The notes under the pieces are model-generated. The model worked only from the letters and a program-made list of their open reading frames with translations, ran no database searches and was not told where the DNA came from. DNA of 64,000 nucleotides from Paraspadella gotoi (lineage: Eukaryota > Animalia > Chaetognatha): assembly GCA_051294375.1 (NCBI GenBank), contig CM119269.1:19205422-19269421 (forward strand). Direction: 5' to 3'. The position numbers and the translations under genes were made by a program. This document shows, one piece after another, positions 8,632 through 46,865 of the stretch (positions within the stretch are counted from its first letter, which is position 1; each line of letters opens with the position of its first letter).

Positions 8632-8667
<36 letters not shown>

Positions 8668-11600
8668 AAAAAAACAAAAAAAGGGAGACTCATAAGTTTT
8701 GTTTTTTAAAGCTTCAATTTGTGCCGCTTTCGGAAACAAGACGAGTGGTCCGTGCCCTGTTGGCCATTACTGCCCCGTCGGGACCACCATTCCCCTCTCA
8801 TGCGACGAGGGACACTTTTGCGGAAAAGGAGGGCTATGGGAACCTCAAGTTAGTAGAGATTTTATCCAATCTTTTGTCACTTCTTCTTAAGTCACAACCG
8901 TAACCTCCAATTTTTAAAACATGCATCATTCGTATTGGGACTGATTCTGAAATAAACTGATTTTTCTTACAGGGTCCGTGTCACTCCGGCTTCTATTGCA
9001 AACCGGGATCATCAGTTCCGAATCCACAAAATTCCACTGAGGGTGACTTGTGTCCCGAAGGAAGATATTGCGGTGAGTCAAAAGTAGTCAGAAAGGGTAG
9101 ACATCTTTACTTAAACTTAAAATCAGTCATCACTTTCTAAAGCTTGGTATTATTCCATGTAACCCTCAATATTTTTAAAAAATTCAAATTTTAAAGATTG
9201 TATTTTCACAATGACGGGGAAATAAATTTAAACAAGCAGTAAGAAAATGCATTATCAGTATAAAATACACAAGAAACCTCGTTCTTCTATTATTATTGAC
9301 TTTTGCTTCGTGGTTAAGTACATCGATGTGTTTTAGCAGAAGAGAGAAAAAGTTGAACCTCATTTTTGATGAAAAAATAATACACTGAGGCGAAAAAAAA
9401 AGGAAACGACTTGTTAGCTTCAAATATCTTCGTTCCACCTTTAACAAAAAATATTAATTAAAACTATAGCTCTTTTAAAGATCGTTGCAAGAAAAATTTA
9501 AATTAGTTTAGGTAGTACTTTTTTTTGCGCCACAGTGTAAAAGGGAATGAGGATTGTTGTGTTAGATTTGGGATTTTTTAGATTTGTGATTTGTTGGAAT
9601 TTGGTCGGATTTGGTTGTGTAGTACAGCCGAGGGGAGAAAAACTGGCATTTGATGAAGGTAAATGAATGGGCTTAAGAAATACCAATAAAAATGTTGAAA
9701 TCATGTGGAGTTTTGTTTCACCGATTAAAAACCAAATCATTTACTTATTCTTTTTTGTACTTTATAAGTACAAAAATTGTATCATCATTACTACTAATTT
9801 TACAATGTACCAATTGATCAACCAACATGGTTGTCAAATATTTATGGTTTAAATCAAGAGCAGGACCAGCTGCGATAAAAATCTTAACTTCTGTTAATTC
9901 TCTGTCTCTCCATCTCTCTGAAAAAAATGTTTCGAAGTCCCACATGCCCGACAGTCCGGTCTCAGATTTCCGCTGCAGGATCGTCCTGATTGAAGCAGCA
10001 CCAACTGTAGGTCTTCACGTGAAGAGACTTGAGGGTGTCCCGGAAGGCGGCTCGAAGGGCCTTCATGCGGAGAGCGTAGACGAGCGGGTTGATGGCCGAG
10101 TTGGCGATGCCGGCGAAGAGAAAGGCGATGCGCGCAGTGAGGAAATCTTCGGTCACACGGGCTGCAAAAAATGTCAAAATTAAAGAAATATTATATATTA
10201 TATTACAAAAAATTAATTGTTTTTTCGCGAAAAACTTTCGTTTCTTCTGAAAAAATATGTTAAAATATTTAAAAAAAAAAAATTAAAGACGATTATATAA
10301 TGGGGAGTGATGGAAATTTTAATATATATATAATGTATAGAAAAATATTTGAAAATCGTGAAAGAAGAAAAGGATGAAAATATGCAATTGAATGTTAGTA
10401 TCAGCACTAAGCAAAGATTAAAGGATAGATCAAAGCGGAAAAAGAAAGAGAACAATAAGAAAAGATAAGGAAACAAAAACTAAATCAATCTCACTGGAGG
10501 AATTGTAGACGAGAAGAAAGTGAAAGGGCGTCCAACAGAGAACGAAGATCATGACGATGATCATCATCGACGTCGTCTTGTGCAAAGAACGCTTCAGCTT
10601 GCCCTTGGACCCGAAGGCCTGCTTGGTCAGCGGAGACGACTCCGAGTCCACCGAGTTGAGGGAACCGTTCAAGGCTCCGATCAAGACGCCCCCTTTGATC
10701 CGCTCGACCAGGTGAGGCTGGCGGAGCAGCGTGGAGACGGCTGACGGGGCGGCGCTGACGTCGGCCGTGGCGTCAGCGGCGGAAGGGTGGGTGGCGTCGA
10801 CGAGACTCTCCGAGGCGACGGAGGGTTCGACGCCAGAGTCGGCCGAATCGATGGATCGGTGGACGGTCATGCGACTGGAGGGTGGGGAATAAGGGGATAG
10901 AACGACGAATAGGTATTAGTGGTTAAGAAAAGAAAAATTTACGCGTCAAAGACTCTTTTGTCAAATTACTACCTCAATCCGTAGACGGAATTCCCCACGC
11001 TCATCAGACCTTGAGATATTTCCGTCGAGCACGCCTGAATTAGCGTAAAAAATGTTTTATTTAGATGGCGTTATAATTAAATTGGGCTATTCATTTCGCC
11101 ATCGCGCGGAGAAAAAAAATTTGCGACCGATTTTCCCGCACAGTTGATGGCAATGTCAAGAATGATTAGTTATTTTTTTATTTTTTTATTTTGGCTCAAT
11201 GAAATTTTCTTTTTTTATTTTTGGCTCAACGAAATTGATTATGGTAATTAGATAAATTTAAATTTAATCAAATCGATAAAAGTTAAAAACTGTTTAAGCG
11301 AAAACTGACCTCGGAGGAACTCTTATTTTCCAGCCGAGTCGCCGACAACATTTCCGACAAAATTTGTTGCTTGTGACACTGAAAACGAAACGATGACATT
11401 ATAAATATTTTTACGTATTTTTTGAACGTTGTACCAACACAAACGGATCTTTTATTTAATTTTTTTTTCATTAGTTATTTTCTAAATTATTTTCATGTTT
11501 GAAACAAAACAAAGCGTCCTCTTTCTCTCCCTCCTCACCTTAGCCGTTCTGAAGATGACGTAATAGAAGCCGAGCATTATTATTGTAAAGACGGAATACT

Positions 11601-11702
11601 GTGCCGAAAGGAAGATGAGATACCACTGTGGCAGAGCGCACTCCATTATGCAAACGGTGTAGTCCCTAGCGGAGATTAGAAGGTTCCGTCGTACAAATCT
11701 CG

Positions 11703-11748
<46 letters not shown>

Positions 11749-14700
11749 TTCTCTCTCTCTCTCACCTTCTTTCTACGTGAAATGGCGTTCTCTCGTTCCA
11801 CGAATGGAAACGAATCGGGAGACAACCGACGACCAAGGAGTAGACCTGAGGGATAGAGAGAGATTAGAGAGATATTATTAAGGGGCATCGGGGGGTGAAA
11901 GAGAAATAAATAAATAAAGAATGAAAGAAAGAAAGAAAGAAAGAAAGACAGAAATCAATCAATCAAGTTCATACTATTTTACTCACCCAAACTGCGGTAA
12001 TTATTTTGATTCCCCTTCGTTTCGTCATTATTGTGTGATAATGCAACGGGTAAGTTATATAAATGAAGCGATCCAGGGCTGAGGAAGACAGTAAATGTGT
12101 GTCTATAATTTATAATTATACAAGTATTATCATCTCCGAAGTTTTCCCTCTACGAACTTACCAACTGCGAGCAGAGTAGCTATGGAGCAAGTGTACGATA
12201 CGAAGACAATGATAAACATAAACAAACAAACAGTTTTGTTGTTGTAGAGATCGGGAAGCATGTAAAACAAGGACCATGTCGGCATCGTTATTCCAACTGA
12301 CATTAAAAAAATATATATATATATATGAAAGTTTAGTTCATTACGCTTTAGTCTCGGAGAGAAGCGGCCACAAAACCTTACCCATGCAGTCGGCGACGGC
12401 GAGATTCAGAATGAAAGAGTAGGTAAGGTTGTGAAGATTCCTGTGAGTCGCGATGGACGCGATCACCAAAGCGTTGCTGATAAAAAAAAAATAGTGTAAA
12501 AAAAAAACCATTTGGTTTTCTCCGGGAAAACGAGACCAATAATTAACGAAAAGTGCAGAGAAAAATATCGTGTCAAAAGTCGTGAGTCTCTCATTAAATT
12601 AAACCTGATCACTGTGATTGGCGTGAGAAGAAAGTAAGTGGTGATCCATGCCATCGAGATGAATTCGTTGCTGGTTGTTTTGTTCTCGAAACTCTGACAA
12701 GTTTGGAGCCGTTCCAGGGCGAGGGAGTTGCACTGCGGAGGAAGAAAGGGGGTGATCGGGGGGGGGGTGTTGTGGATTTAGCGGTGGTGGTCAAAATTAT
12801 AGGAAAAATCGAGAGAGGTGATATAAGATACTGTAGGCGTAGCGTAATGACGAGAAATAAATGACTCCCGATTAATGGATTAAGAAGGGAGAAAGAGAGA
12901 GAGAATGGGGCTGACAGTGAATGAATAATGATCGAACTAATTAGTATTTGAATTAATATATAAAAGGATGTGTGAAAAAAATATAACTCTAAAAAAGGGA
13001 TTATGCGCTGATGAAGGTTGGCAAAAACGAGAGCCGGAACATGTATTCTGTTTTCATTAAAATCTTCTTTTTTTTTTGTGAACAAAATTATACTTTGTTT
13101 TCTCTCTAAATAAGTATGAGAGGAAAAAAGATAAACTAAAACAAATAAGAAAGAACTTACGTCCTGCATTTCGCCGTCTAATAATTGCGACGATATCGCT
13201 GTCGTCTCTGTCGTCGTCGTCTCGTTCTGTATCGTCTCCGAAATTTGATTAACGACGATGACAACGAAATCTTCGAGAAGCGAGGAATTCGAAGGGCGAA
13301 TCTGCGACGAATTAGAAGGGCGAATCTGCGACGAATTCGAAGGATTTGGAGGCGAAATCCTATGACGATTTTGCGCCCAATTTTCCATCAGTAAAGAGGC
13401 TCCGATTGTTAATCAATAATTTGTTCAATCATCGTTTTGTATTGATTTAATTTCGGAGGGTAAATTGTTCTCTTGTTATTTTAAGTTTTTTTTTTCGATA
13501 GTTTCTCAATCAATGGTTTTTCGGTTTCGTTGTAACTTGGTTACAAACGCCGCTCATCTTAAGTTTTCACGTATTTTTTTTCCTGCTTTTTAGACAATTT
13601 TGTGAATCTGTTTTCGGTTTGTGTTTTTCATCATGTCACAAGAAGTGTTTTAGTTTTTGAGGGAAAAAGACGCCACTGGTTTTCGGTCGTTTAATAACCG
13701 GAAACGAAAACTGAGGGAGAAAATAATTAAACTGTCAAGTTAAAAGGTTAAAGGTTAAAGGATTAAAAGGCCAAGGCAAGGATTGACGAGACGAAACGAA
13801 GAATAGTTAAGGGCGTAGAACCTTATTTATACAATGATATTGATATTGATTGAGAGATGATATTGACATAAGAAATATTATTATTAAGCTATAAGCATAA
13901 TGAAATTGAAAATCTGTGAGAGATTTATTCTTTTCTCTGGCATTTTTAAAAAAAAAATGTAACAATAAATTATTTAAATATTCATTCATTCATTCATTCA
14001 TTCATTCATTCATTCATTCATTCTTTCATCTATACATTGATATCGATCTATTCTTACGTTCTTAGCGTCGACAAACGGAAATGGTTTTTGTGAAAAAAAA
14101 GAAGTTTTTTTCGCATTTTTCACGATTGACGATTCGTGAGAAAAAGTTTTCATCGAGAGGAGATAAAGCGAACGCGTTCGGTGAAGATGGAAAGAAAGAT
14201 CGTGAAAGAGAGAGAGAGAGAGAGTGTCGCGCGCGTGCTGCGTCGAAATGAAACGCCCAGGCGAAAACCGCTCACGCGAGTCCGTCACGCGTTCGCGGTT
14301 GCTTGCTACGCGTGACTCGAGCGCTTGCTTCACGCGACCCTAGTGCTTGGTTCACTGGGCACGTGCGCTTTGACTCTCGGCGCCACGTGAGCTCTGAAAA
14401 TTCCCCGCCTCGACGATCACGCGTCGTCGTCGCGATTACGACACAGATTTCGGGGGAAACAAAAAAAAATACGCCAACTCTAATTTGGCTTTGAGGTCGA
14501 AAATATGGTTGTTTTTTTTTTGCTTTTGTTATTATTTGATTTTTGGTTTTCCCTTTTTTTTTCCCCCGTTTTCCGGTTACGCAATCACGGTTTTCGTTCG
14601 TTTCGCTTCAAGTTAAAATGGGTTTGTGATTTACCGGGTTTTTCGTTCGACTACAATTGGTGAATGCGGTACAAAAAATAAGTGCATATCTTTTATTTTT

Positions 14701-16816
14701 TGTTTGATATTCTTAAAGAAAGATAATCCATGTTGTCTTCAGCTTAAAAAAAAACTTCATTCTCGAACATCTAAGTTTGGTTTTCAATTTCCGTGAAGTT
14801 CGAGAAATGATAAAAGCAATATTGCTCTCATGCGGATAAAAGGCACTCGAGGAATCAGCCAATTTTTGTTTTTTGGTTTTTTTAGTTATATTTATTTATA
14901 TATATTTTTAGAAATCAAGAGATAAAAAAAGAAAGTCTGTTGTTTGGTTAATTTCATAAAACGTGGGAAGACAAATAATTTTTCGATCGGTTAGTTCCTT
15001 ACGTTGTGCTTTGGCGGATTTTCAGTTCATTTTCAGTTATTTTTTTTTTCGCGGTCACGCCGAAGTGGACCTTCGTAATTAAAATTTTTTGCGAGCCTCT
15101 TCTTTCGTATTAAATATTTTAGCTTAGATTAAATTAAGTAAAAGATTTATCGTATAGTCAAAAAGGAAAAAAAAAATGTAAATCATCTCTTCCATTTCTT
15201 GTTGTCTCTTTGTAATAAAAAAGTAATAATATGTAGTAATAAAGAAATAAGGAAAGAAAATGGGATCATGTGTCGCCAATTGCCAATTGAGCCGGCGGGT
15301 GGGCCAGTTTTATCCGGTTTAATAACAAACCTGGGTCCAAGCCAAGTAATTTCCTTTCACTTTTAACTGATGGAGAAACTTCTATTTTAAAATGAAATGT
15401 AAAAGCTTTTTATTATGACTATGGATTAAATTGTAAATGTAACGATTAATAAGTTAAAAAAATACCATATTTTATTTCCTATCAAACAACAAACCATTAG
15501 ACGATAATATGGTAACATTAACAGTAAACTCATTCTCGGAGGATGAAAACCCTCTAATCAGAATCAATAAAGAAGTGACTTCCCACGGGCATCCGTCCAA
15601 TATAAAAGTGATTGAAACATTATTTATCTTCTTACCCCGTAGGTAATCTTTTTCGAGTTTCAACCAGTTTTGACTGGATGTTTAACAAACGAAAAGAATT
15701 TAATTAATGTATCGTGTTATAAATTTATTATTTATCTTGAAGCGAAATTTTTAACAGATCTAGTTCGATTAATGAAGACTTCAAGTTAGTTTACAATAAA
15801 ACAAAATTAGGTACTGATTCTAAAGACGATTTTTAAGATCAGTGAAACGGAAAAAAGGGTGAAAAAAAACCCGATGAATTATTTTTTTAAAGAAAAATTA
15901 CAGGAAAAAAATAGCATGTAACCTGAGTGATTGCCAAAAGCGCGACCGTTTCAGCCACTTATTAATTAACAGAAAATCGGGCCGTGACTCCCGATGTTAA
16001 TTTGCGAAGAAATCGTCGAAGAGACTGGGACGCGGGTCCTCGTTCACGCTGGGTTTTTCGATTTTTTTTAAAGTTTAGTTTAGCTTTAATTAAAAAAATT
16101 GCTAAATAAACATTTTATACTATGAGTTTTAAACTGACAATACAATTCCTCTACCTTCTTTAATTTTTTTTCATTTCCTCGACCCAGAACTCGGGACCGG
16201 TTCGAGCCCGCCCCCGTGCCCGGCCGGCACCTTCTCCGCCCGGCGCGGGTTGACGGCCGCGTCCGAGTGCTCCCCCTGCCGCAACGGGTCCTACTGCGGA
16301 TCGCCGGGACTCGTCGAGCCGTCCGGGCTGTGCAAAGAAGGTAAGGAGGCTTTGCGATAAAAAAGTAATGGACTCATGAAAAGTGGGGGAACAGGGGCAT
16401 TCTCAATGCGGAGAAATCGTAATGCTCAATATAAACAAATAATTGACGCAGTTGAATTTAAGATACAAATAATTTAAAACAGAAGAGGAGCGCCGAGATT
16501 TTCGTTAATATTTGGAAACAAATCCGAACAAATTAAACTTGAGGTCGGCGTCGTAAACTAATTCGAAACAGGTCGGCCATTCAGAGGGAAAAAAGGGAAG
16601 AATGATCTCGAATCTCGCGGATTTCTAAGAAAAGCTATCAAGCAAAAACAAAACCAGACAAAATCCAAACGATAACAAAAGAGAAGAAGACACATTTAAT
16701 ATCGGGAATTTTTTATTTGGCACAAAAATAAAAAAAAAGTTCTACCATAACTGTTCAGACGGTCTGATTGACGCTTTTGTTCGATTTGGAAAAAATCTCT
16801 GAATAACGTCTTGGTC

Positions 16817-16903
<87 letters not shown>

Positions 16904-19013
16904 CCCCCACCCATTTTCCTGCCTTTTCTCCTCCGTTTTTTCAAACAATATCTTTATTTCTTTCTCCTTTATATATTGTTATTCTCTACTTTAATTCCCA
17001 TATTTCTCTGTTTCTTCCTTCCACCTATTTCCCCTTTTTTCGCACAGAATCCTGTATTCTTCTCCTCCTTTTCGGTTGATTAATTTCAATCCGTTCGGTA
17101 CGAGAGCAACGAAGCTTTTTCCGCTGCTGCCGTCGCCGCCCGTGCTGTTGTCGCAGCTGTTTATGCTGCTGTGATAGTCGTCGTCTTCGGGAAAACCTTC
17201 CTCCCATTGAACGTCTCTGATCCGAAGAATTGTGGGCGGGTCGGACCACGGGGTAAACCACACCCACCCGCGTTGTGGTCCCGGATAGAAGCCCCACAAC
17301 CATATTTGGTCGGGGGTCTTCGCCCGCGCGCGGCTGCCGATCTCAGTCATTTCCTGGTGGTCGGGAGGAGGCAGGGGAAGAGTAAGCGAGAAGGAAGGGA
17401 GGAAAAAGGGTGAAGAGAGATTAAAAGATAAAAGAGTAAAGGATGGGGAACAAAAAGAAATTAAGCGTAAAAAATATTATGAGTAGAATACTAGGAGTCG
17501 CGGTCGATTCATTAGTTTAATGATAGCGACGAAAATTAATTAGTCCATTGTACAAATACCAGTAAATACTCCAAGATTTTAATTAATTTTTATTATAATT
17601 CGTTGAAGACTTGAATAAGAATATTGAAAAGAAGCCGATGAAGCAGATTTTCTCGCCTCCGGATCTTCCATCGCCGAGAGAAAAGATCCGGGGAAAAGAT
17701 CTCGGCATATTTCTGACGCTTCCTCCCACGTCGCGTCGAAAGAGGATAAGTAGTAGTCAGCGTTCTCCCAGTGGCCGAGATGGTGCCACTGAGAAGGGAC
17801 ACCATCTGGAGTTGATCAAAACAAGTGGTATAAACTGAAATTGCAGTAGTCAGACCGAACGGTCAAGACCCTAAATAACAACAAATCTATAAAACTATAT
17901 ACAATTCGTTGCCTTCACGAATGGGCGAATTTTTGTTCTCATCACGAATTGTGATTGTGTTTACCGTTTTCGAGTCTGGTTCCTGATGCCAAAAAAACGG
18001 AGAGCAGATTCCAAGGGATAAAAACAATTAAAAAATTGTAATGCATGTCAATTTAATAAATTCGAATACCTTCGGAATTAAAACCCAAAATTTATGTTGT
18101 TTTAAAATTTAACAAAAAAATCGAAATGAATTGATTTTCTTGAGGTTAGAAAACTAACCGCGAGACGCAACACAACGATCAAGACCTGAAATTAAAAGGA
18201 CCACAATGAACTCGTCAACGACTGACAGTGACAAGTTTTTTGTTGACGAATTTCGAGTTTCTTGTTTGGTTTCCGTCAGATTCAAAAAGATATGGTTTCT
18301 TGCTCGATTAAAACAAAGAAGATAAGCGGATAAAAGTGGAATCGGAAGCGTGTAGAATGAAATATAAACAGTTTGAAAGGACTGCAAAAAAAAAATTGAA
18401 TAAAAGAGAATAAAATATTTTTTGTTTAGTGAACGCATAAGAGAACGACTCTAAGAATGTACCGATTGCCGCCTCCGCTCATCAATTCCGGCAATCCGAT
18501 AGTTTTTGTAAATCACTTACTCCCTAAAATTATACAATATTTTTTTCCTTTTTTTTTCAATTTTTTTACACATTTATTTAATTTTTCCTTCCTACTTGGA
18601 GAATTTGTCTCTTACTTTTTTTTACTATGAGCACATAGAGCAGTTTCCCTTTACTTTCTATAGAATTTTGCTCTTCGGTCTGCACCCACTAGATCTTCAC
18701 TTTACAAACAAAAGAACATTTTTCAAAATAAAATATTGGGAAACGTTTTAATGTTTTTTATAACGACTTTATTAGTATCAGAACATATATGTTTTGGCTT
18801 ATGTACAAGCCTTCATTAGCGTTAACATTTGTTTTGTGAATTTGTGAAATTATTTTGCGCAAAAGAAGAAGAGAGAGAGAGAGAAAAAAAATAAAGAGAG
18901 AGGGCAAAGTTTCCAACACAGAGATGAGAAAAGAATAGTGGTCAGATGTGAGGACAGGTTCAGGTGAGGACAGATTGAGTTAAATTGTGAAAAAGAAATT
19001 AAATGGTGAAAGG

Positions 19014-19053
<40 letters not shown>

Positions 19054-21342
19054 AATATTAAAAAACAATACATTATGCAAAATATAACAAAGATAAATTC
19101 TTTAAACTAAAAGTAAAAATAAATATTTAACAGTTAACTACTATAAATTAGTGAATATGAAAATGAAAAATGAAAGGTGATACTAATAAAATCGTTGTAA
19201 AAAACATTAAAATGTCTCCCAATACTCAATGAAAAAAAAGGAAATTCATGATGTCCAAAAATAAAAAAGCAATAAAATTTATTTTAAGTATATCCAACCG
19301 GTTTTAATCTTTTTTCTGAAACAAAAGAACAGTCCTATTATATTTTATTTATGTTTTTACCCTATTCTACTAGAGAGCACTACAAAAAAAGATGTTATTT
19401 TTAAGACAAAGGAATATTAAAATAAACTTTAGCTGCTCCCACTAAATCTTTACTTGCACCCACTCTTCAACAAAATAGCAATTTTTTTTAAAAATTTTGA
19501 TTATCTTAAATATTTTCTTTTTTTTCTATTGTTCAACAAATATTTTTTTTTATTCTATTTTATTTTATTCTTTTTTTTCTATGTCTTGATCAAAGCTTTT
19601 GAATCAAATATCAAAACAAAAATAATATTGTTTTGCTTTATAAAATATTTTTGCAAGTACCAAAATGATATTAGTACCACAGTAACAGTTCAGTTTAAGC
19701 CCTTGAAAGTGATTTACATGTATTGGCGCAGCCACTAGTTTGCTTGTTCTTTGATCTAAATACTATCCGATATCAGGATATGTTCTCTATTCAATACAAC
19801 GACAACGACGCCAACAATAGACTATTGTGGGCGTCGTTGTCGTCGTTGTCGCCGTCTTCTTCGTATCCTTTCCAGTTTTCGTCAACGATTTCCGATATTT
19901 ATTTTTAATTATGCTAACGCTATGTTCATTTGTTCCTCGCGCACCTTGTTTGAATCTAACTTGAATGAATATTTGTTTCCTTTCGATGATGATTAATGAT
20001 GATAGTGATCTAGCAGTTAACGAGAAAGACGCCGAGGACGACTATTATGCAAAAAATGATATGTTGTGTTTTTTTGTTGCAATACTAATGATTAAATTAG
20101 CAAGGCGAATGCAACCATAACGATGACGATATTCAACAAAATTATAGTATAGTATAATACTATAAGCAATAGTATATGAAGAGCAACTCCGCAATTTTCC
20201 CAAAAACAAATAATAACAACAACACCAAGCAACACCATAATAAGAAAAAAGCCGATAATTTCTATCAAAAGGAAATAAAATGAGATGACAACGAGAATGA
20301 TGACGATGACGACGACGTCGTCGAATTGACGAAAGAATCCTCAAAAAATTCTCAGCGGAAGTTGATTTTATCGTATTTCAATACGGGCTTATTAACAAGA
20401 TGCCTAGTTAGTAAAGTGTCCTTTCTTTGCTTTTTAAAATATTTTTAGGAAAAGCGAGAAAAAATCTTGAATAAATTTTTCACGATGAGTCGAGTTAAAT
20501 ATGACGAATGAGATGAATCGATGTATTGAAACAAAAAAAAATTAATAGAATCGATTTGACTAATTTTACAATGCGGCATTTATTTTTAGAGGGATAGATT
20601 TGCAATTAAGACAATTCCAAAAATACTTTCAAATATTTTATAGGGTAAAGTTTTGCGATCGGCGTTGAAACAGAGCGAATGAATTAATAATTCCTAGTGA
20701 GAATTTGAATCTTCAAAGAATTTTCTTTCATAATAATAATAATATTTATCATGATCTCCACTTTACAGTTCATCCCATGGTTCCTTTTCCCATTTGACCC
20801 TCAAACCTTTCAGGCTACTACTGTCCAGGCGGCGCTGTGACCCCCGACGCTTTTCCGTGTCCGGCCGGCTACCACTGCCCTGAAGGGAGCCCCCTGTACG
20901 TTAAGTGCCCTTCGGGGTCGTATCAGGATCGAGCAGCTCAAGCAGCGTGCAAAGAATGTCTCGAGGGTGAGTTTTTTTACTGAATAATGATAATAACAAT
21001 AAAACTCATATGGACGAAAGTTATGACGGAAAACGACTTTCACTCAATTACGACTGTTTTGTATATTTACTTGTGATTCCGAGTTACACAACAGTCCATT
21101 GCGCAACGCTTTCCATCAGATGAGCCAGTTATTTGATTTCTAAGACGGTGCATGGGAGAACTTGCTAATTCGCTGCCTAAATCATTCATAGCTAAGAAGC
21201 TTATGACTCGAGTTTGGTAAACCGTAAACGAAAGAAAAAGTAGAAAAAGAGTCATTTTTTTTGTTTTTATATCTGTAATTTTTTTTTAGTCAACATAATA
21301 AACTGATCAACGAGAAATAAAAATAAGGAAAGCTCATTAGCT

Positions 21343-21395
<53 letters not shown>

Positions 21396-25066: not shown

Positions 25067-25126
<60 letters not shown>

Positions 25127-26571: not shown

Positions 26572-26629
<58 letters not shown>

Positions 26630-35192: not shown

Positions 35193-35232
<40 letters not shown>

Positions 35233-38200
35233 TCTCTCTCTCTCTCACACACACCTTCGAACGTTTTAATGGGCGTGTCCGTCACTCCAGTCTTCGCCTC
35301 TGCACGAATCTGCGTCACCGGAAGTTGATCGTAGAGAAAAGGGAGGAAAGAGGGAAGGCGACGAAATGCCTGGATGGAGGAAAAGAAAGCTATTGATTTC
35401 TCACTCTAGTATGTTAAAAGCATCTCCAAGAGCCATTCATTCATGAATAATGTTTTTTTGTTAAATTGTGGCGACTTACCATGATAAGCACTTTCCAATN
35501 NNNNNNNNNATATCTTTTCTTGTCATTTCAGCCCTCGCGGCTTTCAACATGGCGATCAAAACCGCATTGTATTCATCATTTCTTTCATCAGGATGAGTCT
35601 CTTCTTTCCCTTTTTTCCCCTCTTTTTCTCTCTATCCTCCTTTTCCTTTTTCACTTTCCCCCTTTCCTTCTTTCCCAATCCTCACCTGCCCGATCTTCGG
35701 CGTCTTCCCTTCCTCCACCAACTTCCCCTTCCTCCCCAGCAGCCGCAACGCCCTCTCCTCGAGAGGATCGTCCAAGACTCTGGCCAAGACTCTCTTGGGG
35801 AAGTCCACGTGAGCGTCGACGGCGGAGGCGGAGGAGGAAGAGGAGGAGGTGGCGGGGATGTAGTGGACGGAGCGTTGGACGCAGAGGATATCGCCTCGAG
35901 AGATGTCGGCTGAAGAAGATAAAATTTGGGTTGAGTCAGAGATGGCAGAACTAGGTTGTGGCGAACATCGGCCGTTTTCAGTGTCGACATATTCCATGTC
36001 TTTTCTTCCTGCCATAAGCAGCTGTTAGTCTACCTACCACGAAAAATCTGTCTGGCCTACTGACCAGAAACTCTATGCGCAATCAAACAATATCATAATC
36101 ACTACCATCCCCACCCTTTCATCACTCACCGTTGGCCACGAGCCCCAGCCCCGTGCCGTCCACATCTCCCAGCCCTAGCTTAGGGCTGAGCCACTCTACG
36201 CACTCCCATTCGGTCGTGGGATCCTTCAGCGCCGCACGCAGCGCCGCCGCCCAGTCGTGCCGACCCGAGGCTTCGCTCAGCGCCGAACGGAGGCGCCGCA
36301 CTTCCGGTTTCTTCATGCGGGACTCGAAGGCGGCAAGAACGGAGGCGGCGGATGAGGAGGAGGTGGAGTTTGAAGTGGAGAGATGGACGAGGGAGAGAGC
36401 GAGGCGGAAGGCCGCTTTGGTGCGGGAATCTGGGGATGTCGCCAGATGTTATTTTTTATTGCGACTGCTATTTTTGTGAATGGGTGTTAAAAACTTTCTG
36501 ATCATTTTTCCTCTTACAGAATCATTTTCGTTTATGCTCTTTCTTACGGCACTTCCATATCCTGACTTGCCATTTCTCTCGCCTCATCTTTTCTTATTCC
36601 ATTCGCTCCTCGGCCCCCCACCCAGCGCTTACCCTCGTCCTTCAAGAACAGCAGCGCCTGCGCCGCCGAATTCGCTGCGGCGTCGAAGCGTCTCGTCTTG
36701 ACGCAGCAGAGTGCGACGTTGTTCAAGACGTTGCCGACGAGTTTGAAGTCGTCTGGAAAGTCGGCCACGACGTCGACGACGAGATCCGGGAAGGGGACGA
36801 CCGAAGGGTCGTCTCCACCTTTTCTCGCGTCGACGATCTTCTTCAACAGCATCGCCGCCTCTTCGTCCGTCCCATCCTTTTCCAAATAATTGCGTAGCAG
36901 AATCTCCGCGGCGTCAGCGGCACCTATTTTCGACGCCGCCGTCGCATAGGTCGACGCCGCTTCGAAGTAGTTAGGTTTCAGTCTTAGGACGAAGGACGAG
37001 AGCGCCGCGGCTCGACTCGCGTCGCCGGTATCTAGAAACCACGCCGCTCGCGCCGCCAAGGCCGCGATGGCTTCGCGATCCATCGTTTCCAGTCCGGCGT
37101 CGTATGCTTTGACCGCAGCGGCGTACCGACCGGCGCCGAAAAGTTTTTTGGCCGCCTCATTGGCGTCGGCAAGGGAAGCGAGATCCGGCAGAGGTGGCGA
37201 AGGTGGTTCGGGGTTAGAAGTCATTTTCAAAAAAAATTGATTTTCTAGAATAAATTAGGAATTAGCATAGTTATAAAAAAAAATGAAAGAGCCAAACCAA
37301 ACCACAAATATTTGCCCTATTTTGATATAAAAATGTTGGAATGACCCCAAAGATGCTAGTGTCATTGCATATTATTTAGTATATAAGCCTTTTTCAACTT
37401 TCTTTTTCGACCAAAAGTATTTTTTCGGAATATCGAAATCTCTCCGCCAGATTTGAAACTCGGTTTTCTCGACATTTAATATAAGTTCTTGCTGGCATGG
37501 AAGCTTTAAAAACAAGACGAATAACACACAGAAGCTGTAATTTCAGCTTGTGATGGGATATGTATTTATTTGTCAAAAAAATGTGAATAATTTTTAACTG
37601 CAGCAAATTTGCCAACGTTTAAAACTGAGGGCGATTGAAGACGGCGAAGACAAAGATGACCACAACTGCCTTTACTACGATTGATGCTAACTCCTCGTTC
37701 TTAATCTACGTCAGTCGTCGTCGCATCAATGGCGTAAGTGTTTCTTCTCTCTCCTGCTGCTGCGCCACAGCTTCTTGCATTTCCCCATCTCCGCCAAGAG
37801 GGTCTTCTTCTCTCCATCGGTCGGCTCCAACTCCATCGCCTCTCCAGCACCGCGATGGCGTCCTCGGGCGCCGCTTCTCCCGCAGCGCCCAAGCCTTCCG
37901 GAAATAGGCCTTCATGTTTCCCACGTCCCAATGCAGGACCTGTCGTTTGAAGCGAAAATGAGAGAGAGGCTTATGATGAAATTTGCTGGTATTAAAGTGT
38001 ACTCCTGCCAAAAGAGAGTCGAGCTAACGAGTACTCACATTTAACCATGATTCTTTTCAACTAGATTTAATCGCATCAGTTTTTACAAGGAAACGAGGTC
38101 TCTGCCTAGTTGATTTATCTTTGTGTCCCTCAATCATCCGATTAAACCTAATTTCTCTTTACTCTCTAGATTAACCTCTCCAAAAACTAGGCTCAATTTC

Positions 38201-41200
38201 AATCTCAACACAGTTTGGTGCCAACCAAACCATCTCGTCCAAACGACCTGATCGCAATGCTTGATCGCCTCGTCGAATTCCCCCAACCGGAAGCAGGCCT
38301 GCGCCATGTTGCTGTTGACAGGCACGAGACACGCCCTCTTCAACTCGTGCTCTTCCTTCGCCGGTATGATTCGCCTTCGTTGACGTGTAGGCGCAGTAGC
38401 GAAGCGCCTTGGCGTTACTTGTTTCTTGCGCCGGAAAAGTCTCCGGCTCTGAAGGCATCGTTGCCGGCATCCCTTGATGGCGGCAATTGCCTCGATGGAA
38501 AAGCTCCTTGTCTTTGGTGGTTGAGTCCAGAGTCTTCGGGGAAATCGGCGTAAACGTCGCCAGCTGCGGCGGCGGCGGCGGCGGCATCTGTGGCTAATAT
38601 TACTTCCCGCCTGTTTTTTTAAGAAAAGAAACAGACAAAAAAAAAACCAAATGTACGGGCAGAATAAAATATCCTTAAAACTTCTTTCGTCTATTTTATC
38701 TTTTGTGGATAAAATCCTATATTTCTAATTTTCTATTCATAGCTCTAAAATAACCCAACAAAACTAAACCGGATTTGAGGCAAAGTTGGAAATAGGTTAA
38801 CAATTTTCGATTAAAAATTGGGTAAGCCTTTCTCAAGTACAACTTTATCTCCAAGTAAGAACAAAAAACTTGATATAAAGATTACTGGTTTTCAAATCTT
38901 GACGTGTTTCTCTTTTTCATCAAAACGCATATGCAAAATAAAAAATTTCTTATCTAAAATTTTCAATTTTGGAGAATAAATAAAGCGACCGTTGATAGCC
39001 TAATAAGTATGCAGCTGCTACGAAAAAAACTCAGCTGTTTCAAAAAACCATTCTTGAAACCTCATTAAATTTAAAAAAAAAACGTTTCAAGGTTGGCTAA
39101 TATAACCAAGATATTTTTTAGCTTAACTAAACTGTAGAACAAATAAGGTGGTATTCCAAATAATCTATATTTATGGGAAGAATACAAATTATAAAAAAAA
39201 ATCACTGCAAATATAAGGTATAGAATGAGATAGATCCAATAAACAAATAACAAATCAAAACAAAACAAAACAAATAATTTAAAGATACTATAGTGCTGAA
39301 CTAACAAGAAAAAAAACCCAATAAAAATCACAAACACACAAAACTCAACAAAAAAAAAAAAGACTTGACAAACTTTTTTTAAAATGTAAATGAAACAAAA
39401 ACTAAACAAAAAAAAACAAAAGGGAAAAATCATTCGTCCTCGTCGTCGTCGCTGTCGTAGAGACGCGGGGCGTTTTTCTTGCCGGACTTGTCATCGAGCA
39501 GAAAGGATTGGTAAGATCTTTGGAATTGGCGCATTTGCTCGCTGCCAGCTCCTCCTCCTCCTTCTCCCGCTCCATCCCCCTGGGGCGATCTCGACCTCGA
39601 CCTCCTCTGATTGGGCGGCGGGGGTGAATCTTCCTCGTCCCTCTTCCTCATTCCTCCTCCCGCCCCACCTCTTCCGAACCGGATGCCCCCGCGGAACCCA
39701 GAGAATCTTATGTTGCCCCTGACGGCCGTTTCGGCGCCGCCGCCTCCGCCCCCTCGCGGGCCCATCATTCTTCCTCGAGTCATGAAACCCCTACCTTCGA
39801 AGCCGCTGCCCCGCTGAGCCGCCCCGGGACCCCCTTCCCTTTCTCTCTCGTCCCGATCGCCCCCTTCCTCGGGTCTTCCTCTTCCCCCTCCCCTTGCCCC
39901 GGTCATAACCCGAGGGGGACCCCCCATTCCCAACATCCCTCCCGGTTTGAAGCTTTGCATCCCCAGACGGATAGGGCCTCCTCCTCCTCCTCCTCCTCCT
40001 CTTGCGGCGCCGAGGGGCGTCGACGCGCTGAGACCGGAAGTTGACTCTTCCTCCTTTTGAGAGAGAGACGCTGCAAATCTTGGCTCGCACAATAACGGGC
40101 GGATTTTACTCTCAAGGATCCGATGGATGGTTTGCTCATTGTCATTTGTAAATTATTATAAAACTCCCTTCTTAATTTTATCATTTTGGGAAAGTTCCTT
40201 GTATAATATAATCGTAAATAAGTTAAAAAAGTTTGGAATCTTTTATTTAACGTCTGTTTTTAATTTTTTTTTTTAAATCAAATTAAGCCCCTTCCGCCTT
40301 TACCTTGCGTGCGTTTTAATACGTACAGATATACATATAAAGCAATACAATACTATAACTTTATTACAACCATCTATACGATGCATAACTATATATCCCG
40401 AAGGTAATAATCCGCCGCGCCATTCAAACCCAATCATCAAGCCGAAGCCGTAGAGAAGAGAGGAGAAAAAGAGAGGAATCAACGATGGAACCTTACCGGA
40501 CTCTCCTCGTCTTCACTCACCCTTCTGTCGGCCGGGATCTCTACCGCAGTCGCGATGACGCAAAGGCCTACGCGGTCGGTCGCGATGTCGATCTGCGTCG
40601 CCTCCATCTCCTTGACAACGCCCATCCCCTTGACGACGCGGCCGAAGATCAACTCGTGGCTTCCCGTCGAGATTGAGCCCGTCTTCACCTCGTCGTGGAT
40701 GAAGAATCTGAGAGAATGTTGGGGAATGAAAGGAAGAAATGTGGATTTCAAGTTGAGCCTTTTGTCCTTTATTTTCCGAGAAGTAGGAGCTTTTACTTTA
40801 GGAATAATAAGATGATGAACAGAAAACGCATATGGATTCTGATAATTACAATGTTCTATCATTAAATTATGTTCATGATTAAAGACGCCGAATCAATGTG
40901 CAATTAATTTTAATTTAACATCTGGACCCGAAAACGGATTCAAAGAAATCGGTTATGAAAATTCCGATTCACAAAAAAAATATAATACGAATTCACAGAA
41001 AAACCTTTCCATAGCATTACTGAACTTCCATGTGTTCTTGGCCAGAGTTGGCCATCGACAGAAACCCGGTCGGTCGTGCTTCAGCTTGAAGTTCTCGTCG
41101 GCGAATTTTTCGCCGTAGATACTTTCGCCGCCGGTCCCGTTGTGCCTGGGGCGAATATGAGGATTGTCGCGTCGTAAATTTCATTGTTATGGTTTGGAAA

Positions 41201-44200
41201 TTGGAATGTCATTTTAACAAATGAAGGAACGCTTTTTAATACTCATCTCAACATTAAACGTAAAATTATACATAAAAAAGACCCCTTTCAAAGAGTCTTA
41301 TTAAATAAATCTAAATCTAAATAAATCTAACAGTAGAATACAAAAAATATGTTTTCTATTTTCACCTAGTAAAGTCTCCTCCCTGACACATGAAGTTTTT
41401 GATGATCCTGTGAAAGCCGCAGCCTTTGAAGTGGAGCGGTTGGCCGGTGGTGGCGACGCCGTGGTCGCCCACGCAGAGGGCGCGGAAGTTCTCCGCCGTT
41501 CTGAAGTGGGGTGGGAGAGAAAAGTAGGATTCGAGAATTCGCAAATAGGGGTAAAGGGCGAAGAGAAGATGGTGTAAGAAGGAGGGAAGGAAAATGAAAT
41601 TGAGTTCATCAATCTCATTCTTTTTTGAAAATAAGATTGAGTTAATCAATCTCATTTGCATATTGCCGTATTGACATTGACTCGTCCTAAATTCTATTCC
41701 TTCGTCATTTCATGTTATAATTTCACAAATTCACTGATAAGAAATATTCTGACCAATTGAGATTGATCTCAATCACAATCTGAATTCAAAAAGAGAAGAG
41801 AAGGAGCGATGGAAGTTGAGGGGGAGATTCACATTTTTTAACCTTTCACTCTTCAGCTTTACGCCTCCGCTTCATCTCCTCTTACTACTTTCTTTTCCTT
41901 TCTTTCGTGTCTCCCATTTCACCTAACCTTACCTTTCCTCACCCGACCTCACCCTTCCTCACCTCGGGACGACGTCACGAAAGAGTTCGAACTCGATCCG
42001 TCCCGTTTTTTCTCCTCCGATTTCGATGTCGAAGAAAACTTTCGGATTCGGCATCCTCGCTATTTTTTGTTTATAATCTGGTCGTCTGCTTGAGTTTTGT
42101 TTCTTTTATTTTAACGATTTAGTTTCCTTTTTTTGGGACTGTTTTTTTGATGTTGTTGTTGTTTTGGTTTTTTAATTCTCGGGGGTCGAAAAAAAAGAAA
42201 GGGGATAAAATATAAAAGACACGAGAAACAGAATATGAGAACGGAGACAAAACAGATAGAAAACTTGAATTGAAATTGTTTTATTATCGTCGTATTTAAA
42301 TTAGTATAGTGTACATTTGAGAACACATACATGTATCAACATTAAATGACTGACTAGACCATCGGCTTGGTTGCAGACTTTCCGGGAGTTTGAAAAAGAG
42401 GCGTCGCTGCCGAGAACATTTCAACGTCACGAAGTGAACTCTTTTATATTTGATTCTGATTTTGTATTTGTTTATTTCGATTTCACGTAAACTGCGCTTC
42501 TTTTAAAAATCCAAACGTTAAAATTAGTAACGATTTCCGCTCCAAGAGTCTCCTCCTTCATCTTCTTCCTTCTCTCCCTCTTCCTCCTCTTTCGCCTCTT
42601 CATCGTCGCCTTTGTTTTCATCGTCGTCGCCTTTGTTTTCCTCATCGTCGCCTTTGTTTTCGTCGTAGTTGTAGTCATCATAAGCATCGTAGTTAGAGGC
42701 GCCAAACGACCCTAGTCCATATTTGTCCTCGACCGGCTCTTCGTTGTCCTCGTCTTCCTCGCCTTTGTTTTCGTTCTCTTCGTCTTTGTTTTCCTCGTCG
42801 TTTTCGTCCTTGTTTTCTTCGGTGTCGTCGTCGTAGGGATCATAGTTAGAGGCGCCAAAAGATCCCAGTCCATATTTGTCTTGATTTTCGTCTTCGTCTT
42901 CGCCTTTGTTTTCGTCTTCGTCTTCGCCTTTGTTTTCGTCGTAATCGTCGTAATCGTCGTAGTTGGAGGCGCCGAAAGAGCCAAGTCCGTACTTGTCCAC
43001 TACCGCTTCGTCGTTGTCTTCTTCCCCCTAAAATATTAGTAGGGACGAAAGGCGAAGAAAGAATAAAGCAAGAAAGAACAGGGATAGAAAGGAGAAAAAG
43101 AATTGGAATTGTTGACAGACAGGAAAAAGAAAGTGAATCAGAAAAGTAAAAGAAAAGAGAAGGAAAGACAGGAAAAAGAAAGTGAATCATAAAAGTGAGG
43201 GTAAAGTAGGGCAAGGTTAAAGATAAAGAATAAAGATTAGAAATCGTCATAAATTTAAAAAAAATTCAAGTCCTGGGAAAATTTTCATAATTTTAAATTC
43301 AAGAGAGCCTAAAAGTCAGAATGAAATTAATTTTATGTTATTTCGGTTGATATATCTTCTGATATATATATTTCCTTTCCTTGTTTTCCATTGTAAAAAA
43401 AATTATATTACGCTTTATGCAATTTTGGTTTGAATAATCCCAGAACTTAAAATACTAAACGAATAAAAATGTATATTTCATATCTCTATAAGTTGTAGTC
43501 TGAACAATACTAAATATGAAATGATTGTGAAAAGCATGCGGAGGTTTCGGAGTTAACGTTTGGACTATGGGCAACGATTGAAAAAGCAGTGTGCTGCGCA
43601 GCACAAATGTTCAGTCAACTAAACAACGTAAAAGATAAAAATGGAACCGAAGTGTGATTAAATCGAAAGGTAAACGATTCATAGGAAGAGATATTTTAGT
43701 GTGACAAAAAATAAACGAGATCGCGCTTTAAAATACAACTTACTGTAGACGCCACAATGGAGTACAGCTGTCTAAGCCTTAAAACAAAGTCAGATTTAAC
43801 ATTTAACATTTAAATTCGTCAATAAAGCGAAATTGAAAATTATTACAATGAAGAAAAGATTTTTTTTATATTCCGAGTGCGTGAAAAATCTTTTCGATTC
43901 GTGGATTCGATTTCCAGCTTCAGCGTTTGACCGCCGAGGGATTTTTTTATTTGTCATTTCTAAATTTCAAATTTTTGAATTATAGAAAATCAGAATTTGA
44001 AATTTGAGAATTAAATTCGAGGATGCGATCGGTTCCATCTGCCGCTGATATCGATTTCCACTTTGGAGGTTAAAAACCTCGTAAAACGATCATCGTTTTG
44101 AAGCGACCATTTTTAATCCCTGTCGTTTCTAACAACCCTACTCTTTCGTAAGTCGTCGAAATGTTATTGTTCTTGTTCTTTTATTTAATTCCCGAGCCTC

Positions 44201-45084
44201 ATCCGCCATTCGGTCCGTCGGGTCAGTAATTGGCCTGTCGTTAATCGTTCAAATCGGACCGCGTCACTCAGTTAATTTACCTCCTCCGTCGCCGCCTCCT
44301 CGGCCGGTGCCTCCTCAGCTGGCGCCGGCGCCCCGGCTGGCGCGGCCTTCAAGGGGCACTCGTCCGGGGCTTCAGTCTTGAGGAATTCGAAGAGACTCTC
44401 GTTTTCGATGGCGAGTTGGAAACCGTCGAAGTCGCCGCAGAGTTGATCGTCGTTGAAGATCTGAGGGGTCACGACGACGCCCTGGAGGAAATTCCGGTGC
44501 CTTGGAGGTTAGCGTATGTTTAGTATGTTCAGGGAATTAAATGAAACCTTTAGAGGACTGTTGCTAAAGATCTTGTTGTAATAAGTATAACAAACTATAA
44601 AAACACTATTAACCTGTTTGTTTTGAAGTCCGTGTTCGTGCAAAAAAGTTCGTTCATCTTCCAATATGTTGTCGCCGACGTCAACGACCTGCGTGAACGT
44701 TCTTTTCATTGATAGAGTGATTGATTGATTCCTTGATTTGATTAAATGATTTATTTATTTTTTAGTGATTAATCAATTGAGATAAATAAGGCCGGGAAAG
44801 TCATTTTTAAGCGTTTTAAACTACTACGTATGAAAAAAAAATGTTCTTTCATATTTTTTTTTCTTTAGTCGCTTACTTCGTGATTGATTTTCAATCCGGA
44901 CAACAGCCACAAAACATGTTGCTGATTCTTTTTAGCCGCGGTGTAAATAGTCGCGTTCGAAATATATACTTTAACCACCATATTGACTGTTTGTTTGTAT
45001 CACGAAAAATCTAAATGAAAAATTTTCGTTCGAATATTAACAGAAAACTGGCTTGGGTTTTCTGCGCAATGAATAACCAGAAAG

Positions 45085-45154
<70 letters not shown>

Positions 45155-46416
45155 TTTTGCGGATGGACAATTCAAATTTCAGATATATCGAAACAAAAAG
45201 TTTTACTAAAAGAAAACAAAATTACGTTGAATTCAGTTTAAAAGAAGTATTTTTAACGCTGACGCCAACTATTTTGAAACAAAGTTTATTTTTCATTAAA
45301 GTAGTCAGTCGCAAACTATAAAATGATTCACCTTTTAATATAAAGTTTTATTTGTAAAATTATAGTTTAAAACGCGAGGCAGCGATCGACTATGAGCATT
45401 TTGAAGTCTTGGACTCCCCCTTCGCTCCTGAGAGCGACCGGGAGAGAGAAACGAACCTTCATTTCTCAGAATCTACGATTGAAACGGATTTAGCGTTATT
45501 ATTTGTTATGTCGAGCTAAAAAATAATGTTCTAACGAGTGATAATCGTCGACCGCGAATAGCGAAACGGGAAAAGTTTGGGTTTATGTCGGAGGGGGAAG
45601 TGAAAGAGAGAGAGAGAGTAGAGAGAGAAGAGAGAGAGAGAGAGAGAAGAGAGAGGTAGAGAAAGAGAGAGGAGAGAGGAGAGAGAGAGAGAGAGAGAGT
45701 TGAAATGCAACCGGGTGAAGATAAGCGAGTGTGTGATAGAAAGCGAGCGCACGCGATAGAGACGGAGAGAGAATAATCTCGACGTTTCCAGAAAATTAGA
45801 GCCTTTTAATTTTATCTAAATCGTTATTAAAAACCTTTTTTTTTTGCAGGCATTGATTGACTGAAAAAAAAAATAAATGTGTGAATATTAGTTAAATTAT
45901 TACCAATATCTTTTAAATTAAAGTTCTAATCATAATAAGAGATTATATTATTCAAATAACAGTAACTATAATTCATTCCCTTAGGATTTTTCTGTGACGT
46001 TTCCGACGCCCCGATTCTGGACGTGACCAAGTACGAGTGCCCATCGGGTCACTTCTGCCCAAACGGAACGAAAAAGGCGACGGTGAGAGTTACCGCGTTT
46101 TGCATAGTCCGTTACACTTACAATTCACAAAATCTTAAGTCAGGCAACAAATTTATTAGATATAGCTATTTTCGATTAGACCTTTAAGTAAGAATAAGAG
46201 ACAAAAACATTAACATTAATGGATTACTAATGTTCTACATGTTATTTGGTTCACAGGCGTTCCCTTGCCCACTCGGAACATTCTACAATTTAACTGGCGC
46301 GAGAAACGTCTTAGACTGCATCAAATGCGAACAAGGAAAATTTTGTGGCAAAGAAGGACTGGTTGAACCTGAAGGTAAAATTGATAAGAGATACATTGAG
46401 GAGAGAAAGGGAGAGG

Positions 46417-46511
<95 letters not shown>

Positions 46512-46865
46512 GAGAGAGAGAGAGAGACAGACACATAAACATAAAAAACTATTATCTTCCCCACAGGTTTCTGTGGGGCCGGATATTGTGTGCATCTTAG
46601 GCCTCATGGAGCGCACCGCCCGTGGAAGCCACCGTAAACGCGACGTTACCACCCCCTGGGGGCGTGCCCTGCCCCGCCGGACACTACTGCCTCGAAGGAA
46701 CGACCGCGCCCTCTCCGTGCCCAATCGGCTTCGCCTCTTCGTCGGAAGGATTGAAGCAGGAGGTCGATTGCCCGTCCTGCCCGGCCGGGCATTTTTGCAA
46801 TGAGACAGGGTCGACAGAGGCGACCGACCAATGCGATGAAGGGTGAGGTCATAGGAAAGAAAGAG

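What the first reader, a model, noticed from the sequence alone, without database searches (positions are those of the whole stretch)
9073..45984. Russian-doll locus: a cluster of 7-8 antisense genes inside three consecutive introns of one giant Cys-rich gene
Seen: host exons ending at 9072, 16188-16340, 20814-20966 and starting at 45985 are all phase 1 and continue the Cys-repeat register without a break (..GRYC|ELG.., CKE|GYYC, ECLE|GFFC). That defines introns of ~7.1, ~4.5 and ~25.0 kb, whereas most host introns are 60-600 nt. These introns hold a GPCR; a C-type lectin; and NLR, TPR-SET, PPID, RGG ORF, acidic repeat protein and SH3BGRL, every one on the opposite strand. Known: nested antisense genes are common singly. 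Inference: six in one intron with perfect strand uniformity is unusual and implies transcriptional interference or mutually exclusive expression.
Basis: partly seen in the sequence, partly recalled or inferred. Interest (0 to 1): 0.8.

Follow-up and report, generated by a model that had tools for sequence, protein, structure and literature searches.

The report
Six genes nested inside one gene
Six intron-bearing genes lie on the opposite strand between consecutive exons of one giant cysteine-repeat animal gene, four of them packed head to tail in a predicted 25-kb intron; such nesting is known, and the one open twist is that part of this block is possibly transcribed as one operon.

Summary
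The nesting is real at DNA level, but the count is too high. Host exons 17-20 have strong GT-AG sites and match abutting positions in hemichordate and echinoderm homologues, so no exon is missing across the 7.1, 4.5 and 25.0 kb gaps. The only N gap inside is bridged by a gene. The three host junctions were not seen in RNA.

There are six guest genes, not 7-8: a GPCR, a C-type-lectin-like gene, and four in the big intron (SH3BGR, PPID, TPR/SET-like, NLR). An RNA contig shows the 'acidic repeat protein' is the last exon of SH3BGR. The RGG ORF sits inside a PPID intron and is unresolved.

Strand uniformity is expected: about 85% of multi-exon nested fly genes are antisense (6 of 6: p about 0.37), and up to 13 guests per host are published. 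It does not imply mutually exclusive expression.

The four-gene block fills 93% of its intron, and SH3BGR and PPID RNA contigs end 87 nt apart. That fits an operon inside an intron (about 30%; no spliced leader seen). The scan noted a similar locus elsewhere in this genome (unchecked).

The parts
1..52799 (+). Host gene, 35 modelled exons, about 2000 aa visible; Cys-rich repeats of the Ephrin_rec_like (PF07699, GCC2/GCC3) type; both ends lie outside what the window shows
   Evidence: frame breaks in exon 22 and at junction 28|29, likely assembly indels
8973..9072 (+). Host exon 17, phase-1 donor
   Evidence: donor score 8.3
9073..16187 (+). Host intron 17 (7115 nt), holds the GPCR
9960..13388 (-). 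Rhodopsin-family GPCR, 11 exons, 518 aa, all introns GT-AG, no internal stop
   Evidence: 7tm_1 hits on three exons, each below the curated cut-off
16188..16340 (+). Host exon 18
   Evidence: acceptor 11.3, donor 11.3
16341..20813 (+). Host intron 18 (4473 nt), holds the lectin-like gene
17025..17805 (-). C-type-lectin-like gene, at least two coding exons (17805-17657, 17353-17025) joined by a predicted GC-AG intron; 5' exons not defined
   Evidence: no Pfam lectin hit
20814..20966 (+). Host exon 19
   Evidence: acceptor 11.1, donor 11.4
20967..45984 (+). Host intron 19 (25018 nt); the four guest genes span 23388 nt of it (93%)
21634..29640 (-). NLR-type gene (acidic N-terminus, NACHT-like P-loop, LRRs), 15 exons, 1325 aa, 13 GT-AG and 1 GC-AG introns
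   Evidence: NACHT (weak) and LRR hits
30186..37224 (-). TPR plus degenerate SET-like gene, 10 exons, about 719 aa; one gene that bridges the N gap
   Evidence: aligns end to end to P0133 (705 aa); TPR_19 hit
35500..35509 (.). 10-N assembly gap, the only one in 9073-45984, inside intron 3 of the TPR/SET-like gene
   Evidence: P0133 residue 352 before it, 355 after it
37706..42054 (-). PPID (cyclophilin 40-type: cyclophilin plus TPR), 6 exons; exons 3-6 carry frame breaks, likely assembly indels
   Evidence: exon 1 covered by an RNA contig
39430..40152 (-). RGG/RS-rich ORF inside PPID intron 4, same strand as PPID; alternative last exon or a doubly nested gene, unresolved
   Evidence: no homologue; no good acceptor at its 5' end
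42201..45021 (-). SH3BGR-family gene as covered by RNA contigs: exons 45021-44877, 44688-44614, 44481-44281, 43777-43744 (34 nt, opens with Ala then stop), and a last exon from 43027
   Evidence: (four joints in one contig)
42524..43027 (-). Acidic repeat ORF = start of the last SH3BGR exon; no Met of its own; in frame with exon 3 only if the 34-nt exon is skipped (predicted long isoform)
   Evidence: 9 of 9 variable columns among three 14-codon repeats are third codon positions
42114..42200 (-). 87-nt stretch between the SH3BGR 3' contig and the PPID 5' contig; acceptor-like AG before 42177, 108 nt after an AATAAA at 42285
45985..46082 (+). Host exon 20; best partner of exon 19 among 18 phase-1 exons tested
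   Evidence: acceptor 6.9

Best explanation
Six intron-bearing genes lie on the minus strand between exons 17, 18, 19 and 20 of a giant Cys-repeat gene, which is likely still spliced as one transcript across these 7, 4.5 and 25 kb introns, the guests likely being tolerated because their splice and poly(A) signals are unreadable on the host's strand. Shown: the exon chain, its colinearity with homologues, the six gene models, and the splicing of SH3BGR. Inferred: the host's long introns are removed by recognition of strong flanking exons. Inferred: the guests came in as DNA segments (translocation or overlapping inversions), not as retrocopies, since all keep introns; the four head-to-tail genes most likely came as one block. 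Inferred: polymerase conflict is small because the host is transcribed in few cells or rarely while SH3BGR and PPID are broadly expressed. This is a passive arrangement filtered by selection against same-strand nesting, not an on/off switch.
For: Exons 17-20, aligned one at a time, take abutting positions in homologues: P0001 926-958, 961-1009, 1011-1058, 1062-1093; P0034 665-697, 700-746, 750-797, 801-829; exons 18-20 likewise in P0003 and P0015. The whole model aligns over about 1500-1650 aa at 40-44% identity across all three junctions (P0001, P0003, P0005). Exon 20 ranks first as partner of exon 19 in both tests: 16 of 122 homologues against 7 for the next exon, and fused score 179 against 170. 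Splice sites at the long introns score 8.3, 11.3, 11.4 (donors) and 11.3, 11.1, 6.9 (acceptors), against medians of 8.3 and 8.5. None of the six top-scoring plus-strand donors upstream of exon 20 has a Met plus signal-like frame. The N gap is bridged by one gene. Antisense bias is 71% overall in flies and about 85% for multi-exon guests. No terminal repeats other than microsatellites were listed around the block.
Against: No host junction was seen in RNA. The junction tests are not clean for the other two introns: exon 18 ties with exon 26 after exon 17 (9 of 122 each), and exon 10 outscores exon 19 after exon 18 in the fused test (185 against 166). In P0005 only exon 19 of the four takes its expected place when aligned alone. 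An AATAAA lies 32 nt into intron 19 on the host strand (5 of 35 donors have one within 80 nt), so early termination is possible. The assembly is locally error-rich and has a duplicated raw-read-like segment 10 kb downstream. The host model has two frame breaks. Restricted host expression is not measured. Mammalian nested genes show only a slight antisense bias.
Confidence: 0.72

Rival explanations
1. Operon in an intron (adds to, and does not exclude, the best reading). SH3BGR, PPID, the TPR/SET-like gene and perhaps the NLR are one polycistronic unit from a promoter near 45.1-45.5 kb, cut apart by spliced-leader trans-splicing, which alone would make them share a strand.
For: SH3BGR 3' and PPID 5' RNA contigs end 87 nt apart. 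AATAAA to acceptor-like AG is 108 nt, close to the ~100 bp of C. elegans operons and under the 250-bp cut-off used for chaetognath operons. Stop-to-start gaps are 469, 482 and 545 nt. Acceptor-like sites with no good donor lie before PPID, TPR/SET and NLR (8.0, 7.8, 10.4).
Against: No spliced-leader loose end among the 6 of 24 loose ends shown, and no contig bridges the two genes. Acceptor-like sites are common by chance: 11 of 38 intron tiles of 200 nt hold one scoring 7.5 or more. The lineage, and so whether it trans-splices, was not established by my calls. Published chaetognath operons are depleted of signalling genes, which fits an NLR poorly.
Confidence: 0.3
2. The host is split or decaying. 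The exons are ancestral neighbours, but rearrangement broke the gene at intron 19, leaving a 5' transcript that ends after exon 19 and a 3' part that is silent or fired from the divergent SH3BGR promoter.
For: AATAAA 32 nt after the exon 19 donor. SH3BGR starts about 1 kb from exon 20, back to back. In C. elegans a nested gene induces a short host transcript. Two frame breaks lie in the 3' half.
Against: The exon 19 donor is among the strongest in the gene. Exons 1-21 are stop-free. No start exon was found for the 3' half. Frame breaks also hit PPID, whose first exon is covered by RNA, so they look like assembly errors.
Confidence: 0.12
3. Assembly artefact: foreign contigs were scaffolded into short host introns.
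For: Gap-filled assembly with six N runs, indel-rich stretches and a 4.6-kb duplicate at 90% identity (363 gaps, 84 mismatches). No independent DNA data were available.
Against: It needs six false joins, each inside a host intron, none marked by N. The single N gap is inside a colinear gene. Introns 17 and 18 have no gap.
Confidence: 0.06
4. One reading: the arrangement is kept as a regulatory switch, with host and guests expressed in a mutually exclusive way through transcriptional interference.
For: Nested pairs diverge in expression in flies and are co-expressed less than neighbours in C. elegans.
Against: Strand uniformity needs no such cause. The guests are functionally unrelated. Co-expression of antisense nested pairs is not rare.
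Confidence: 0.1

Closest known systems
Complex nested genes of Drosophila (Assis 2016, PMC5174743; Lee and Chang 2013, PMC3814207; passages read)
   Same: Several genes inside one host (up to 13), mostly antisense, with a stronger bias for intron-bearing guests.
   Different: Fly guests tend to be small, intron-poor, fast-evolving and testis-biased, often retrocopies, inside broadly expressed hosts. Here the guests have up to 15 exons, include conserved genes (PPID, SH3BGR) and fill 93% of the intron.
Nested intronic genes of the ctenophore Hormiphora californensis (PMC8527503; passages read)
   Same: Compact invertebrate genome, 2357 nested genes in 1654 hosts, a figured host with four guests, 484 doubly nested genes, trans-spliced leaders present.
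   Different: Many of those guests are parallel to the host or flanked by transposons. Here all are antisense and no flanking element was found; double nesting is only a candidate (RGG ORF).
C. elegans opposite nested pairs, ceh-10 in polq-1 (PMC12274878; passages read)
   Same: Antisense guest whose promoter faces downstream host exons; here SH3BGR starts about 1 kb from exon 20.
   Different: Single guest with a shown induced short host RNA; nothing of the kind is shown here.
Spliced-leader-resolved operons of chaetognaths and nematodes (PMC12460157, PMC2481426, PMC1657053; passages read)
   Same: Head-to-tail genes with about 100 nt between poly(A) signal and next acceptor, as between SH3BGR and PPID.
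   Different: No leader or polycistronic RNA was seen here. The passages read do not describe operons lying inside an intron.
Ephrin_rec_like (PF07699, GCC2/GCC3) repeat proteins, including apicomplexan CRMPs (PMC9815656, PMC9670195; search listing and abstract starts only)
   Same: The host is built of the same Cys-rich repeat type; homologues occur in vertebrates, echinoderms, hemichordates, molluscs, annelids, cnidarians, an oomycete, a brown alga and apicomplexans.
   Different: The host's ends are not in the window, so the membrane part that I recall CRMPs having was not testable; database names such as MEGF6 or Notch-like are automatic labels; no solved structure matches P0001.

Membership tests
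Nested (intronic) gene locus | Flanking exons are consecutive parts of one ancestral coding sequence | tested here: met
   (clear for 19>20, less sharp for 17>18 and 18>19)
Nested (intronic) gene locus | Guests lie wholly between donor and acceptor, with their own intact exon chains | tested here: met
   the lectin-like gene's 5' end is undefined
Nested (intronic) gene locus | Host RNA is spliced across the guests | not tested
   no RNA was laid on a host exon
Nested (intronic) gene locus | DNA contiguity confirmed by independent reads | tested here: inconclusive
   N gap bridged by a gene; no DNA run or genome available
Russian-doll (double) nesting | A guest holds another independent gene in its own intron | tested here: inconclusive
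   RGG ORF in PPID intron 4; no homologue, no clear start or acceptor
SL-resolved operon | Same strand, under 250 nt between transcripts | tested here: met
   SH3BGR to PPID only: 87 nt between contigs; other gaps known only stop to start
SL-resolved operon | Spliced leader on downstream mRNAs | tested here: inconclusive
   none among 6 of 24 loose ends shown; the PPID contig starts 64 nt downstream of the candidate acceptor
SL-resolved operon | Polycistronic pre-mRNA from one promoter | not testable with these tools
   contigs only; none bridges the two genes
Ephrin_rec_like / GCC2-GCC3 repeat protein | PF07699-type Cys repeats | tested here: met
   4 of 4 host exons hit PF07699 below the cut-off; 4 of the 5 homologues scanned pass it
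CRMP (apicomplexan type) | Signal peptide and C-terminal multi-pass membrane region (recalled) | not testable with these tools
   gene ends lie outside the window
Active SET methyltransferase | Pfam SET match with intact NHSC and catalytic Tyr motifs (motifs recalled) | tested here: not met
   no Pfam SET hit on exons or on P0133; the motif is degenerate in the translation
C-type lectin domain | Lectin_C sequence profile | tested here: inconclusive

The most novel reading that the evidence does not exclude
A whole multi-gene operon (SH3BGR, PPID, TPR/SET-like, NLR), resolved by spliced-leader trans-splicing, sits antisense inside one intron of a rarely transcribed giant gene. If the similar beta-tubulin locus noted elsewhere in this genome is real, this lineage routinely packs housekeeping operons into introns of restricted genes, reversing the fly pattern of broad host and specialised guest.
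Probability: 0.3. Interest if true: 0.65.

Novelty: new member of a known kind. Interest (0 to 1): 0.4.

Why it matters
As it stands this is a large example of a known architecture and a warning for annotation: gene finders with a short maximum intron would split this host. If the block proves to be an operon, it would show that one promoter can carry several conserved genes into an intron at once. That would explain strand uniformity without selection on each gene and give a route to nesting other than retroposition. The locus would then allow a direct test of how a broadly active antisense unit and a 25-kb host intron share one template. A side result is a likely long SH3BGR isoform switched by a 34-nt stop-carrying exon.

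Tried and rejected
No whole genome was held, so synteny and the rest of the host could not be examined. Run search: no RNA holder on record, one run X1 with share 0.19; its contigs proved spliced where laid. No RNA was laid on host exons, so the host junctions stay open.

Phase continuity as proof of the junctions: rejected. Acidic ORF as a separate gene: rejected. Exons at 31.3-30.2 kb as a further gene: rejected, they are the 3' end of the TPR/SET-like gene. Unpaired acceptors as evidence of trans-splicing: not above chance. Depletion of AATAAA on the host strand in the long introns: none (11/11, 13/11, 38/40).

RGG ORF: no Atlas hit and no homologue among 128 candidates. Rfam: 0 matches in the window. 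PDB: no match for P0001. Cluster look-ups gave no names for the closest SH3BGR and TPR/SET relatives, so the lineage was not established. Flanking transposon ends around the block: none seen among the repeats listed (20 direct families, the 25 longest of 182 inverted pairs).

Literature: no paper on an operon nested in an intron turned up (open-licence library only; supplements not read); one search found nothing and one search listed one paper on fly glue genes (not read). A zebrafish gene id recalled as a possible host orthologue is listed as testis-upregulated in 10.1101/650218 (passages); the orthology was not tested, so it is a lead only.
Full report
Setting. The window is animal-type DNA with short introns, GA microsatellites and six N runs. 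No whole genome was held. My calls did not establish the lineage. An earlier unchecked note calls this an arrow-worm genome, and chaetognaths do have leader-resolved operons (PMC12460157, PMC2481426; passages).

The host. A 35-exon model on the plus strand runs from 1 to 52799 with GT-AG at every junction. Exons 1-21 give 1157 aa without a stop; phases disagree only inside exon 22 and at junction 28|29. The four exons scanned match PF07699 weakly. A search with exon 25 found 272 relatives among 319 candidates, from vertebrates to oomycetes. Of 34 introns, 29 are 65-594 nt; the three named ones are 7115, 4473 and 25018 nt.

Are the exons neighbours? Phase says little, since 21 of 34 introns are phase 1. 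Homology says more. The model aligns over about 1500-1650 aa at 40-44% identity to hemichordate, echinoderm and fish proteins across all three junctions, with at most a one-residue gap beside them. Aligned alone, exons 17-20 fall on abutting positions in P0001 and P0034, and exons 18-20 in P0003 and P0015; in P0005 only exon 19 does. Against 18 phase-compatible exons, exon 20 is the best partner of exon 19 in both tests (16 of 122 homologues against 7; fused score 179 against 170). Exon 19 after 18 wins one test (20 against 11) and loses the other (166 against 185). Exon 18 after 17 ties in one test and wins the other. The flanking splice sites are average to strong. No host junction was observed in RNA.

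Assembly. The only gap inside the finding (35500-35509) lies in an intron of a gene that aligns in order to one 705-aa protein on both sides. The assembly is still rough. PPID exons 3-6 carry frame breaks, and 50646-55031 recurs at 56547-61121 at 90% identity with mostly indels, the mark of a raw long read. An artefact would need six unmarked false joins, so I give it about 6%.

The guests. All are on the minus strand. GPCR: 11 exons, 518 aa. NLR: 15 exons, 1325 aa. TPR/SET-like: 10 exons, reaching down to 30186; the SET label is by motif only. PPID: 6 exons. The lectin-like gene is moderately supported. One X1 contig of 572 nt with no differences joins SH3BGR exons 1-3 to a 34-nt exon and on to the acidic exon. 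The 34-nt exon opens with Ala and stop, matching the ends of the seven homologues printed. The acidic ORF has no Met, yet its three repeats differ only at third codon positions (9 of 9 columns), so it is probably translated when the 34-nt exon is skipped; that isoform was not seen. The RGG ORF lies inside PPID intron 4 and has no homologue. The count is six genes, four in the big intron, plus one unresolved ORF.

Is the strand uniformity surprising? In Drosophila 71.3% of nested genes are antisense, and single-exon genes make up 72.5% of same-strand against 37.4% of opposite-strand guests (PMC3814207; passages). That gives about 85% antisense among multi-exon guests and p about 0.37 for six of six. 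Up to 13 guests per host occur in flies (PMC5174743; passages). A ctenophore has 484 doubly nested genes (PMC8527503; passages). Mammals show only a slight bias (PMC11694760; passages). In C. elegans, antisense pairs are often co-expressed and a guest can induce a short host RNA (PMC12274878; passages). Uniformity therefore does not imply mutual exclusion.

How it likely works. The host polymerase reads through the guests, whose splice and poly(A) signals are on the other strand, and strong exons 18 and 19 are picked out of long introns (inferred). The guests keep their introns, so they came as DNA; four lie 469-545 nt apart stop to start and fill 93% of the intron, which suggests one block (inferred). 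Conflict is probably limited by narrow host expression; this is unmeasured, and the only pointer is a recalled, untested zebrafish orthologue listed as testis-upregulated (10.1101/650218; passages).

The operon option. SH3BGR and PPID contigs end 87 nt apart. An AATAAA lies 108 nt before an acceptor-like site, like the ~100 bp of nematode operons (PMC1657053; passages). But no leader was among the 6 of 24 loose ends shown, no contig bridges the genes, and such acceptor-like sites occur in 11 of 38 control tiles. I put it at 30%. Searches found no paper describing an operon inside an intron; a preprint on Oikopleura annotation names nesting and operons only side by side (10.64898/2025.12.04.692336; passages). 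An unchecked scan note reports 14 antisense housekeeping genes in introns of a beta-tubulin gene elsewhere in this genome. I took from it the framing that this reverses the fly pattern; it is not independent support.

Verdict. Real nesting at DNA level, smaller than described and of a known kind. Interest 0.4; 0.65 if the operon reading holds.

Noticed in passing
window 56547-61121 and 61113-62465: Indel-rich copy (90%) of 50646-55031, followed by an inverted copy (87%) of 55097-56454; looks like a raw long read used as gap fill, and it duplicates host exons 30-35.
   Followed up: partly
window 4390-6750: AT-rich element with about 500-nt terminal inverted arms (76%) in host intron 12; likely a non-autonomous DNA transposon, which explains that 3148-nt intron. 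No ORF of 100 aa in it.
   Followed up: partly
window 43744-43777: 34-nt SH3BGR exon carrying the stop codon 28 nt before the last junction; skipping it would add a 167-aa acidic repeat tail.
   Followed up: partly
window 40521 and 39430-40152: The X1 contig on PPID exon 1 has 437 nt outside the laid stretch, about the length of exons 2-4 (447 nt in the assembly); it may end where the transcript forks towards the RGG ORF or the TPR exons. Letters not shown, weak hint.
   Followed up: no
window 27051 and 17657: Two predicted GC-AG introns, in the NLR and in the lectin-like gene.
   Followed up: partly
window 20998-21003: AATAAA on the host strand 32 nt after the exon 19 donor; possible early poly(A) site.
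   Followed up: no
window 43066-44125: Low-depth X1 contigs (1.3-3.8) cover SH3BGR introns; pre-mRNA, DNA or host intron RNA cannot be told apart.
   Followed up: no
window 42877: 12-nt insertion in an X1 contig relative to the window inside the acidic repeats; the length keeps the frame.
   Followed up: no
window 28226-29640: The NLR has a ~430-aa acidic low-complexity N-terminus with no Pfam match in its large exon, in place of a death-fold domain.
   Followed up: no
window 62511-62684 and 48280-48380: Near-perfect 174-nt palindrome and a shorter imperfect one; the first lies among gap-fill artefacts.
   Followed up: no
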